Shown piece after piece: positions 11,557 through 12,905 of a stretch of 64,000 bases of DNA. The position numbers were made by a program, and so were the translations under genes. Origin of the DNA: a virus; the IMG/VR virus record IMGVR_UViG_2802428968_000003; one strand, 5' to 3'. How positions within the stretch are numbered: the first letter of the stretch is position 1; each line of letters begins with the position of its first letter. A model generated the notes under the pieces. It searched no databases. It worked only from the letters and a program-made list of their open reading frames with translations, and was not told where the DNA came from.

Positions 11557-11632
11557 GCCCCTATAGCTCAGTTGGTAGAGCTACGGACTTTTAATCCGCA
11601 GGTCCCAGGTTCGAGCCCTGGTGGGGGCACCA
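11557..11632 (+). tRNA. tRNA-Lys (TTT), CCA encoded; likely attB/attL of the adjacent prophage
   Basis: GCCCCTATAGCTCAGTTGGTAGAGCTACGGACTTTTAATCCGCAGGTCCCAGGTTCGAGCCCTGGTGGGGGCACCA. Phage-type DNA starts immediately 3' of it. Confidence 0.85.
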
Positions 11633-11861
11633 GCAGCACCGCCGTCGTCACCGCCGTCAGGCAGTGAGCGGTAACCGGTGAGGGTGTAGTTGGCATCAAG
11701 ACCGAGCTTGTCGCAGATGTCGTCTACCTCCTCCACCTTCCATCGGACGCCACCGAGGGTTCGGCGTGACAGCCAAGGTTGGCTTACACCAAGCTCTTTG
11801 GCCGCCCTGTTCACCGATAGACCCAACGCAACCAGCTCTTGCTTCAGTCGGATCGAAATAG
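11581..11861 (-). pseudogene. N-terminally truncated XRE-family HTH (repressor-like) gene remnant whose 3' end overlaps tRNA-Lys
   Basis: ORF 11581..11994 encodes ISIRLKQELVALGLSVNRAAKELGVSQPWLSRRTLGG, an HTH. No in-frame start codon lies downstream of the homology breakpoint at ~11862. The stop codon falls inside the tRNA. Confidence 0.4.
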
Positions 11862-12905
11862 CGCCGCGACGTACTGCACGGCGACGACACGCTCGTGAGC
11901 CACGTCGAACCGTTCCCGCGCGACAAGGACACCACCCCGACCGCGAGGGACCACCGGGACAGGCACCAGGGGGCACTGTGGCATGCCCTGGCACTCGGCC
12001 GGGTCAACGGACGCGCCAGCGACGAGCTCGACCGAATCCGCAACGCGCTGTCGACGACCATCCGCGACATGTGCGAGACGCGCGGGCTGGAGGTGCCCGA
12101 GTTCCGCACGAGTCCAAGGCCTCTGCCGATGGTCGTCGAATCGGATGCACGGCGACCGGCAGATCGGTTCAGCCTCGATTCGGCACCGCCGGCCCGGGCG
12201 GGCTCGTGTCGACGATGCTTCGTCACGTTGCCCACCTCGGCGGCCGGACCGCTGTGCGACGACTGCGACGGCGCCCCGGAGACGCGCGCACTCGACCAGT
12301 TTTCCGCGGAAAACTGGCGCGTCATCTACGCAGGAAGGCGCGGCGACGAGACGCATTCGATCGCGACGACGGCGCGCATGGCCAAGTGGCTGCACCGGCA
12401 CGCGGCCAATATCGCGTTGCAGGAGAACGGCGCCGAGATCTGCGACGAGATCGAGCAGGTGTACCGGTCAATTACACGCGTGGTGAACCGCCCACCCGAG
12501 CCCATGATCATCGGACCATGCATCACCGACCCGGCACCCGACGAGGTGCTTGCCGAGCGGGGCCGCAAGGGCGACAACTCAACCCGGTGCGGATACGCAC
12601 TCATGGCACCGAGCCACAGCGGCTCAATCGTGTGCCCCCAGTGCGACACCGCGCATTCGGTGGCCGACGTGCTGGCACGCAACCTTAGCGAGCTCGACGA
12701 CCGCAACGCGACCGTGCGCGAACTCGTCGACGTGATACTCCCCCGCCTTGATGAGCACGTGCCGCAGTCGACCATCGAGCGGTGGATCAGACGCGGGCGG
12801 GTGCCGGTGCGCGGCCGGGACGCCCAGGGGCACCAGATGGTTCGCATTGGCGATGTGCGCACGGTGCGGGCGGAGCGGCCACGGAACGCGAGGGGCCTCA
12901 CATAA
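11862..12905 (+). pseudogene. 5'-truncated copy of Cys-rich/excisionase-like HTH gene X (about 90% nt identity to 61925..62970)
   Basis: Direct nucleotide alignment by eye against 61921-62970. The N-terminal ~55 codons of the full copy (MTKCKRCERATDLFVCKAC...) are absent. Homology starts at ~11862. Confidence 0.55.

What the first reader, a model, noticed from the sequence alone, without database searches (positions are those of the whole stretch)
11557..11880. Prophage junction at tRNA-Lys: a repressor-like HTH remnant overlaps the tRNA 3' end
Phage-type DNA starts immediately 3' of tRNA-Lys. The first element is an XRE-type HTH ORF on the minus strand (11581..11994 frame) whose 3' end and stop codon lie inside the tRNA. 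This arrangement is expected when attP lies within the 3' end of a repressor gene, as in the integration-dependent immunity systems described for some mycobacteriophages. The ORF has no in-frame start codon after ~11862. It is therefore a truncated remnant.
Basis: partly seen in the sequence, partly recalled or inferred. Interest (0 to 1): 0.6.

Follow-up and report, generated by a model that had tools for sequence, protein, structure and literature searches.

The report
Dead phage repressor stub at tRNA-Lys
Next to a lysine tRNA gene of Mycobacterium abscessus lies the broken stub of a phage repressor gene, left by a decayed prophage that used the known "integration-dependent immunity" trick; the large prophage beside it is a different phage that belongs to another attachment site.

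Summary
tRNA-Lys(UUU) lies at 11557-11632. On the minus strand, 11581-11859 holds the last 92 codons plus stop of an XRE-type repressor. Its TAG stop (11583-11581) lies inside the tRNA, directly against a 50-bp attachment core (11584-11633).

An M. abscessus contig in attP form carries a 98% identical repressor. There it reads through the same core into a 26-codon tail and is followed by a tyrosine integrase. The matching attR (the tail, ending -KAA, plus a 43-nt exact core copy) is found in other strains. An intact prophage with a full 111-aa repressor allele (54% identical) sits at the same tRNA in another strain. This is an attL relic of an integration-dependent immunity phage.

It is dead. 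A deletion junction at 11859/11860 removed the first 18 codons, the promoter and about 12 kb of early genes, and fused the stub to the inside of a phage gene. The junction is identical in strains that lack the big prophage.

From about 14.5 kb the DNA is a MabC-type phage with an attB-13-type integrase, joined by homologous recombination. On this contig it ends at attB-13 (the MAB_3947-type gene), not at a tRNA-Lys core. This is a known kind of system and of low novelty.

The parts
11557..11632 (+). tRNA-Lys (anticodon UUU). It is intact, and its 3' 49 nt form most of the attachment core.
   Evidence: ARAGORN. Identical in L003, L004, L007, L008 and L010.
11584..11633 (.). attL common core, 50 bp: CGGACTTTTAATCCGCAGGTCCCAGGTTCGAGCCCTGGTGGGGGCACCAG. 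It is shared with attP (L014) and attR (L003, L021).
   Evidence: Four-way att alignment. A 43-nt exact second copy lies in L021 at 18345-18387 and in L003 at 440-482. The tRNA 3' 33 nt (11600-11632) match exactly inside the immunity repressor genes of Redi and other M. smegmatis and Gordonia phages; in IdentityCrisis the repressor gene matches 11600-11664 at 93.8% and is identical to the tRNA through the core.
11581..11583 (-). TAG stop codon of the prophage-form repressor. It is made by the three host bases that abut the core; the phage has CAG (Gln) at this position.
11581..11859 (-). Repressor remnant: codons 19-110 plus the stop of an XRE-type integration-dependent immunity repressor (ISIRLKQEL...RIKSP*). 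The first 18 codons (MTTLVLVDSPRGRSRDEA) and the promoter are missing.
   Evidence: 98% identity to P0001, which is full length in attP form. Pfam HTH_31 and HTH_3. 38-42% identity to annotated immunity repressors.
11859..11860 (.). Deletion junction D1. It fuses repressor codon 19 to about codon 66 of a gp26-like gene in opposite orientation. About 12 kb of early genes were lost.
   Evidence: The direct repeat with 61931-62965 starts exactly at 11860. Alignment with the intact repressor and the intact gene.
11860..11994 (-). Spurious upstream extension of the ORF. It is antisense to the truncated gp26-like gene and holds the only upstream in-frame GTGs (11976 and 11994).
11860..12905 (+). 5'-truncated copy (336 codons by the ORF call) of the 400-aa 'helix-turn-helix DNA binding domain protein', gene 26 of MabC prophages.
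   Evidence: 91.7% DNA identity to 61931-62965 over 1035 nt by megablast; 94% over the first 300 nt. Annotation of MW584150 gene 26. Strain L008 lacks window 12028-12329 inside it, which is further decay.
12906..14436 (.). Left part of the old relic. It is shared at about 100% identity with strains that have the relic only.
   Evidence: L003, L004 and L010 match window 1-15171 at 99.4-99.8%. The three-way SNP pattern shows the relic-only strain L003 equals the left copy up to 14436.
14437..14538 (.). Homologous-recombination crossover zone between the relic and a MabC-type phage.
   Evidence: The SNP phase switches here. A hybrid 100-aa protein is found on one contig only. All 17 mismatches between L007 and the window lie at 14479-14904.
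14539..64000 (.). MabC-type phage DNA that is not cognate to the tRNA-Lys junction. It holds late genes, lysis genes, a toxin cassette, the integrase 48667-49557 (-), the attB-13-type core at 49678-49695 inside a full-length (viral-form) repressor 49578-49967 (-), early genes, and the full gp26-like gene 61768-62970 (+).
   Evidence: Phage database matches of 92-98% to MabC prophages. Core sequence from Table S1 of PMC8092301. Integrase comparisons. L038 is 100% identical across the junction.

Best explanation
Window 11581-11859 is the non-functional stub of the repressor gene of a temperate phage that once integrated into the 3' end of tRNA-Lys(UUU) and used integration-dependent immunity.

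In the free phage, the repressor gene runs through attP into a short tail that carries an ssrA-like degradation tag, and it is followed by the integrase gene. Integration splits the gene at the 50-bp core. At attL the host bases next to the core create a TAG stop. The result is a shorter, stable repressor of 110 aa that ends ...RIKSP.

The prophage then decayed through two deletions.
- D1, with its junction at 11859/11860, removed the repressor's first 18 codons, its promoter and the whole early lytic region. It runs up to about codon 66 of a gp26-like gene.
- D2, seen in other strains, removed the late genes and the integrase. It left only the repressor tail and the core at attR.

The resulting 8.6-kb relic is common in the M. 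abscessus genomes sampled (14 of the 25 contigs read).

In this strain a MabC-type phage (attB-13 type) later recombined by homology with the relic at about 14.5 kb. Unrelated phage DNA therefore now follows the stub.

Shown here: the homology, the att sites, the junctions and the distribution among strains. Inferred: the order of events, and that the stub is not expressed.
For: - tRNA and ORF geometry.
- HTH domain.
- P0001 is 98% identical over all 92 residues and supplies the missing N-terminus and the tail.
- The attP-form contig L014 has, in order, a cro-like gene and an antirepressor diverging upstream, then the repressor, the core, the tail and a 331-aa integrase. That integrase is 55% identical to the IdentityCrisis integrase.
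- An intact prophage lies at the same tRNA-Lys locus in another M. abscessus strain. It has a 111-aa prophage-form repressor of another allele, cro, antirepressor and RecET-like genes (L028).
- attR holds the tail ...QDCAKDPQIRQLPAAQAPVEPERKAA* plus a 43-nt exact core copy, followed by a host MFS transporter gene.
- The D1 junction is mapped to the base.
- The same junction is present in relic-only complete genomes AP028613.1, CP034191.1 and CP034181.1.
- The tRNA-Lys 3' end lies inside the annotated immunity repressor genes of Redi and related M. smegmatis phages, IdentityCrisis, 32HC/Rem711 and several Gordonia phages.
- The described features of integration-dependent immunity are taken from PMC9262239 and PMC8092301.
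Against: - Non-expression is inferred, not measured. The frame stays open for 45 more codons upstream and has two in-frame GTGs, so a 131- or 137-aa fusion protein with a complete HTH domain cannot be excluded.
- The promoter scan found nothing, but it uses an E. coli-type consensus and says little about mycobacteria.
- No truly empty tRNA-Lys site was recovered among the 25 contigs read. attB is therefore reconstructed from attL, attR and attP rather than observed.
- The attP-form repressor ends -KVA in L014 and -KAA at attR. The degradation-tag function is assumed by analogy.
Confidence: 0.9

Rival explanations
1. The stub is still functional. It would be made as a 131- or 137-aa fusion protein from the GTG at 11976 or 11994, driven by an antisense promoter inside the truncated gp26-like gene. 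It would protect the host against phages of the same immunity group, as a domesticated orphan repressor.
For: - The whole HTH domain and the exact prophage-form C-terminus are kept.
- It is 98% identical to the repressor of an intact-looking phage.
- The frame stays open upstream with two GTGs.
- The relic is widespread among M. abscessus genomes.
Against: - The native start, 18 N-terminal codons and the promoter/operator region are gone.
- The upstream 45 codons are antisense to another gene and Arg/Pro/Gly-rich, with no obvious ribosome-binding site.
- No promoter-like site was found.
- A second, independent relic type (P0008) has lost helix 1 of the domain, so the HTH is not consistently preserved.
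- The neighbouring gp26-like fragment shows further decay in strain L008.
Confidence: 0.06
2. The stub is the attL end of the large prophage that fills the rest of the window. On this reading one prophage, integrated at tRNA-Lys, spans the region, with its attR beyond 64 kb.
For: - Phage DNA is continuous from 11633 to the window end.
- The cognate phage type has a MabC-like gene order.
Against: - The window's integrase is 81% identical to a MabC integrase and only 30% identical to the tRNA-Lys-type integrase. Elsewhere it sits next to the adh_short gene at the attB-13 (MAB_3947) position.
- The attB-13-type core lies at 49678 inside a full-length repressor.
- SNP phasing shows a switch from relic to MabC phage at 14437-14538.
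- On this contig the phage DNA ends at the attB-13 core next to that adh_short gene, and there is no tRNA-Lys core in the next 9 kb.
Confidence: 0.03
3. The ORF is a chance reading frame in GC-rich DNA, and the HTH match is spurious.
For: The HTH_31 score is just below the Pfam cut-off. Long antisense ORFs are common at 65% GC.
Against: E 1e-51 and 98% identity to a real repressor. The frame through the core is shared with IdentityCrisis gp36 and many prophage repressors that end RIKSP*.
Confidence: 0.01

Closest known systems
Integration-dependent immunity of mycobacteriophages BPs, Brujita and Charlie (Broussard et al. 2013, as summarised in PMC9262239)
   Same: - attP lies inside the repressor gene.
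- Repressor and integrase are adjacent and on the same strand.
- attB overlaps the 3' end of a tRNA.
- The prophage form is ended by a stop codon made by host bases right next to the core.
- The viral form carries a C-terminal tail ending in -AA.
- A cro-like gene diverges upstream.
   Different: - Here only the last 92 codons survive, and the integrase, promoter and early genes are deleted.
- The repressor sequence is only distantly related.
- The host is M. abscessus rather than M. smegmatis.
- Function was not tested.
Mycobacterium phage IdentityCrisis gp36 (immunity repressor) and gp34 (tyrosine integrase), MN234184
   Same: - The same tRNA-Lys core lies inside the repressor, read in the same frame (...GGAAGAPTRARTWDLRIKSP).
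- DNA is identical through the core and about 18 nt beyond the tRNA 3' end.
- The tail ends -LEAA.
- The integrase is 55% identical to that of the cognate M. abscessus phage.
   Different: The HTH part is only about 42% identical. The tail sequence is different, and it is a phage of M. smegmatis.
[quoted passage not shown] 2021, PMC8092301)
   Same: Same host species and same immunity logic. [quoted passage not shown] The cognate phage has a MabC-like gene order.
   Different: tRNA-Lys(UUU) is not among the 18 attB sites tabulated there; attB-18 is a different tRNA-Lys, Mab_t5022c. This copy is a decayed relic, not a prophage.
Tandem prophages prophiT36-2a and prophiT36-2b (Amarh et al. 2023, PMC9934374)
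   Same: Two integration-dependent immunity phage genomes meet at an internal att junction, which raises the same question of whether the second repressor is fused in frame to a degradation tail.
   Different: That case is at attB-2 (tRNA-Thr), and the two repressors use different frames. Here the internal junction at 49678 reconstitutes a full-length viral-form repressor. This belongs to the MabC phage, not to the tRNA-Lys stub.

Membership tests
Integration-dependent immunity system (repressor-attP-integrase cassette) | The attP common core lies inside the repressor open reading frame | tested here: met
   In the attP-form contig L014 the 50-bp core lies within the repressor ORF, 26 codons before its stop. 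In the window the core occupies the last codons of the stub.
Integration-dependent immunity system (repressor-attP-integrase cassette) | Integration truncates the repressor through a stop codon supplied by host sequence at attL | tested here: met
   The host bases CTA at 11581-11583 abut the core and give TAG where the phage has CAG. Intact prophage-form homologues P0003, P0006 and P0009 also end RIKSP*.
Integration-dependent immunity system (repressor-attP-integrase cassette) | The viral form carries a C-terminal extension with an ssrA-like tag | tested here: met
   The tail at attR in L021 and L003 encodes ...PVEPERKAA*. P0005 ends ...ERIAA and IdentityCrisis gp36 ends ...LEAA. The L014 variant ends ...ERKVA. 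Whether the tail acts as a degradation signal was not tested.
Integration-dependent immunity system (repressor-attP-integrase cassette) | A tyrosine integrase lies directly downstream of the repressor on the same strand | tested here: met
   In L014 the integrase (331 aa, Pfam Phage_integrase) starts 43 bp after the repressor stop. In the window and in the relic the integrase has been deleted.
Integration-dependent immunity system (repressor-attP-integrase cassette) | [quoted passage not shown] | tested here: met
   tRNA-Lys is intact at 11557-11632. The core copy at attR is followed by host DNA and an MFS gene.
Integration-dependent immunity system (repressor-attP-integrase cassette) | The truncated repressor confers immunity and the full-length form does not | not testable with these tools
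   This needs phage plating and protein stability assays.
Functional repressor gene (this copy) | Complete coding sequence with its own start codon and promoter | tested here: not met
   Homology to intact repressors ends at 11859. 18 N-terminal codons and the upstream region are replaced by antisense gp26-like sequence.
Cluster MabC prophage attL (attB-12 or attB-13) | attL core TACTCGTGAGTAAGAAGT or TACTTTTCGAGTAAGGTA next to the repressor 3' end | tested here: not met
   No such core lies at 11557-11880. The attB-13-type core is at 49678-49695.

The most novel reading that the evidence does not exclude
The stub may be a domesticated orphan repressor rather than junk. On this reading the relic widespread in M. 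abscessus genomes expresses a fusion protein with an intact HTH domain and the stable prophage-form C-terminus, and that protein gives standing immunity to tRNA-Lys-integrating phages.

A related reading concerns a second relic type (P0008). It was formed independently, and both of its deletion endpoints lie within about 40 bp of those seen here. This could point to a favoured or selected route by which these prophages are disarmed: deletion from the repressor 5' end to the 5' end of the gp26-like gene.
Probability: 0.06. Interest if true: 0.55.

Novelty: new member of a known kind. Interest (0 to 1): 0.27.

Why it matters
The system itself is well described, so the finding mainly adds detail.
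- tRNA-Lys(UUU) is a used attachment site for integration-dependent immunity phages in M. abscessus. It is not among the 18 attB sites tabulated in the 2021 survey (PMC8092301); I did not check the three sites numbered later (attB-19 to attB-21).
- Many M. abscessus genomes carry an 8.6-kb relic of such a phage, bounded by attL and attR.
- The relic acts as a landing pad for homologous recombination with an unrelated MabC phage, which links two chromosomal loci.

This has practical consequences. Prophage-calling tools would draw the wrong boundary here. The relic could also influence phage susceptibility or genome rearrangement in a pathogen for which phage therapy is being developed. That second point is speculative.

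Tried and rejected
- Second copy of the tRNA-Lys core inside the window: searched with up to 3 mismatches and by shared k-mers, and none was found.
- Two complete tandem MabC prophages starting at the tRNA: my first reading. Rejected because the left 2.9 kb is the relic and the integrase types do not match.
- Simple Campbell-type insertion of one circular phage into the relic: considered next. It fits the 50,071-bp repeat spacing and the reciprocal SNP phasing. On the window's own contig, however, the right-hand copy is cut after about 0.9 kb of shared sequence, by a further deletion that runs into integrase codon ~12, the repressor tail, the attB-13 core and an adh_short (MAB_3947-type) gene. 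In assembly GCA_900133305.1 the two recombinant junctions lie on different long contigs, which I read as suggesting an inversion. The exact rearrangement path is unresolved.
- Broussard et al. 2013 (PMC3557535) is not held. I used the Hatfull 2022 review instead.
- Promoter and terminator scan of 11400-12600: nothing found, and weakly informative for mycobacteria.

Full report
**What is at the coordinates**

ARAGORN finds tRNA-Lys (anticodon UUU) at 11557-11632 on the + strand. tRNA-Glu, tRNA-Asp and tRNA-Phe lie just to its left on the minus strand.

The minus-strand ORF 11581..11994 exists. Its stop, TAG at 11583-11581, lies inside the tRNA. Residues 50-101 match XRE-type HTH models: Pfam HTH_31 with E 5.9e-6 (26.9 bits against a cut-off of 27) and HTH_3 with E 1.7e-3.

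- GTG at 11994 and GTG at 11976 are in frame upstream.
- TTG at 11826 and GTG at 11814 and 11736 are in frame inside the domain.
- There is no ATG.

**Why it is a remnant**

Repeat finding shows that window 11860-12159 is a 94% direct repeat of 61931-62230. A pairwise alignment extends this to about 11860-12900 against 61931-62965. The left boundary falls exactly at 11860.

The right-hand copy is a full 400-aa gene at 61768-62970. It is the 'helix-turn-helix DNA binding domain protein', gene 26 of M. abscessus MabC prophages. The left-hand copy lacks about the first 66 codons.

The 45 codons of the ORF upstream of 11859 are therefore antisense to that truncated gene. Only 11581-11859 (92 codons plus the stop) is repressor sequence.

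**Identity of the 92 codons**

A search of 5.8 billion proteins gave P0001, from M. abscessus, at E 1e-51, 98% identity and full coverage.
- Its sequence supplies the missing N-terminus, MTTLVLVDSPRGRSRDEA.
- It continues past ...RI(K/I)SP into QDCAKDPQIRQLPAAQAPVEPERKVA.
- Homologues P0003, P0006 and P0009 (107-111 aa) start MTTL... and end exactly at RIKSP.

The contig that carries P0001 (L014) has the attP arrangement. An antirepressor and a cro-like gene diverge upstream. The repressor is followed 43 bp later by a 331-aa tyrosine integrase. After that come a toxin cassette and lysis genes. That integrase is 55% identical to the integrase of mycobacteriophage IdentityCrisis.

IdentityCrisis gp36 is annotated as immunity repressor. 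It reads ...DGGAAGAPTRARTWDLRIKSPLESPFASVELEAA, so it crosses the same tRNA-Lys sequence in the same frame and ends in -AA. Its DNA is identical to the window from tRNA position 28 to about 18 nt beyond the tRNA end.

The tRNA 3' 33 nt also lie inside the annotated immunity repressor genes of Redi and other M. smegmatis phages and of several Gordonia phages. A tblastn search gives 38-42% identity to several annotated immunity repressors, including those of MabC prophages.

**The att sites**

I aligned attL (window), attP (L014) and attR (L021 and L003). The alignment defines a 50-bp common core, window 11584-11633: CGGACTTTTAATCCGCAGGTCCCAGGTTCGAGCCCTGGTGGGGGCACCAG.
- To the left of the core the phage has ...CCTG, which gives CAG (Gln) on the coding strand.
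- The host has ...GCTA, which gives TAG. The stop codon is therefore made by the host bases that abut the core. The same logic is described for BPs.
- At attR in other strains, a 43-nt exact core copy is preceded by the reverse complement of the repressor tail. That tail encodes ...RIKSPQDCAKDPQIRQLPAAQAPVEPERKAA*, is 95% identical to L014, and is followed by host DNA and an MFS transporter gene.

An intact prophage of this type, with a different repressor allele (P0006, 111 aa), occupies the same tRNA-Lys locus in another M. abscessus assembly. It has cro-like, antirepressor and RecET-like genes in MabC-like order (L028).

Every sequence-level feature of integration-dependent immunity listed in PMC9262239 and PMC8092301 is met.

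**How the prophage decayed**

In three complete genomes (AP028613.1, CP034191.1, CP034181.1) and many others, the tRNA, the stub, the 11859/11860 junction and the truncated gp26-like gene are identical to the window. In those strains the phage-derived segment is only about 8.6 kb and ends at the attR described above.

Two internal deletions explain this relic.
- D1 runs from repressor codon 18 to about codon 66 of the gp26-like gene. It removed roughly 12 kb of early genes.
- D2 runs from a DUF8277 gene to 10 bp past the repressor stop. It removed the late genes, the lysis genes and the integrase.

One strain (L008) lacks window 12028-12329 inside the gp26-like fragment, which is ongoing decay.

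Of the 25 contigs read for the flanking 277-aa protein:
- 14 carry the relic only.
- 1 resembles the window.
- Several have insertions at tRNA-Phe, so their tRNA-Lys lies outside the fetched flank.
- 1 has a broken tRNA-Lys.

No empty site was seen.

**What follows the stub in this window**

The window equals M. abscessus contig FVND01000004.1, about 359,731-423,730. Loci L039, L038 and L019 from that contig are 100% identical to window 10308-18610, 41578-57967 and 51768-64000.

Three-way SNP phasing compares the relic-only strain L003 with the two repeat copies. L003 equals the window's left copy up to 14436 and equals the right copy from 14539 onward. That is the signature of a reciprocal homologous crossover at about 14.44-14.54 kb between the relic and a MabC-type phage.

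From there to 64000 the DNA is MabC phage, 92-98% identical to prophi100A-2, prophiGD51-1 and phiGD57-1.
- Its integrase (48667-49557, minus strand) is 81% identical to the prophi100A-2 integrase and 30% identical to the L014 integrase.
- In other genomes this integrase lies next to an adh_short gene at the position Table S1 gives for attB-13, the 5' end of MAB_3947.
- At 49678-49695 is the core TACTCGTGAGTAAGAACT, which matches the attB-13 core in Table S1 at 17 of 18 positions.
- That core lies inside an uninterrupted 129-aa viral-form repressor (49578-49967, minus strand) directly upstream of the integrase. This is an attP-like junction.

Beyond the window end on the same contig, the right-hand copy runs about 0.9 kb into sequence shared with the relic. 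It is then joined by another deletion to integrase codon ~12, the repressor tail, the attB-13 core and an adh_short (MAB_3947-type) gene. No tRNA-Lys core occurs in those 9 kb.

In assembly GCA_900133305.1 the two recombinant junctions sit on two different long contigs (L007 and L021). I read this as suggesting an inversion between the tRNA-Lys relic and an attB-13 prophage. I could not settle the full path for this strain.

**Mechanism and function**

The ancestral system worked as described for integration-dependent immunity. Integration removes the destabilising tail and yields the active repressor.

The copy in the window most likely does nothing.
- Its start, 18 codons and promoter/operator region are gone.
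- No promoter-like site is seen, although that scan is weak evidence for mycobacteria.
- A second relic type (P0008, loci L023-L026) has lost helix 1 of the HTH domain.

Expression of a 131- or 137-aa fusion protein cannot be excluded. I give it about 6%.

**Comparison with known systems and novelty**

This is a decayed member of a known system (Broussard 2013 as reviewed in PMC9262239; M. abscessus examples in PMC8092301 and PMC9934374). tRNA-Lys(UUU) is not among the 18 attB sites tabulated for M. abscessus in 2021. The site and the relic are therefore a modest addition. I score interest low, at 0.27.

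Noticed in passing
window 49578-49967 (-) with core at 49678-49695; integrase 48667-49557 (-): This is an attP-like junction inside chromosomal DNA. A full-length 129-aa viral-form MabC repressor, carrying its 33-residue tail, sits directly upstream of the integrase. Under the integration-dependent immunity model this form should be unstable, so how this phage copy is kept silent is unclear. The exact protein is found on only two contigs in the collection.
   Followed up: partly
window 11860-12900 and 61931-62965; crossover at 14437-14538: The two diverged copies of the gp26-like gene region start 50,071 bp apart (91.7% identical over 1035 nt; 94% over the first 300 nt). 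SNP phasing shows reciprocal homologous recombination between the old tRNA-Lys relic and a MabC phage. In assembly GCA_900133305.1 the two recombinant ends lie on different long contigs, which I read as suggesting a chromosomal inversion between the tRNA-Lys and attB-13 loci.
   Followed up: partly
L019 13150-13400 (same contig as the window, about 1.1 kb past its end): A further deletion joins the start region of the 179-aa HTH_23-like gene to integrase codon ~12, the repressor tail, the attB-13 core and an adh_short (MAB_3947-type) gene. The right-hand phage copy therefore lacks all late genes.
   Followed up: partly
L023-L026 (P0008, 132 aa), 10001-10399: A second relic type lies at the same locus in other strains. 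A different repressor allele (P0006-like) is fused to antisense gp26-like sequence. Its junction lies about 33 nt (gp26 side) and about 39 nt (repressor side) from the window's junction, with about 6 bp of microhomology. The two deletions look independent, and the close clustering of their endpoints is unexplained.
   Followed up: partly
L006 (CSWD01000001.1) 9133; window equivalent 11600/11601: In one strain tRNA-Lys is broken after position 44, at the variable loop. It is joined to the right end of another prophage (Lsr2, RlaP, GH-E toxin, lysin B and lysin A), and ARAGORN finds no tRNA-Lys there.
   Followed up: no
L005, L009, L011, L012; window equivalent 11170/11171: Other strains carry different integrated elements between the 277-aa gene and tRNA-Phe. 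One has an FtsK/SpoIIIE gene, and another has a 377-aa tyrosine integrase. The tRNA cluster is a multi-site insertion hotspot.
   Followed up: no
L008 8706/8707; window 12028-12329: Strain FVKP01000001.1 lacks window 12028-12329 (302 bp) inside the truncated gp26-like gene. This is further decay of the relic.
   Followed up: no
window 44236-47755 (-): A polymorphic toxin cassette lies near the phage's integrase end: a 603-aa protein with a WXG100-like domain, plus small downstream ORFs. Such cassettes are described for M. abscessus prophages.
   Followed up: no
L021 17823-19748: Gene callers produce a 641-aa 'DUF8277 + MFS' protein. It is an artefact that reads from a phage gene fragment through the repressor tail and the attR core (LRTFNPQVPGSSPGG is the translated tRNA core) into the host MFS transporter gene.
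   Followed up: yes
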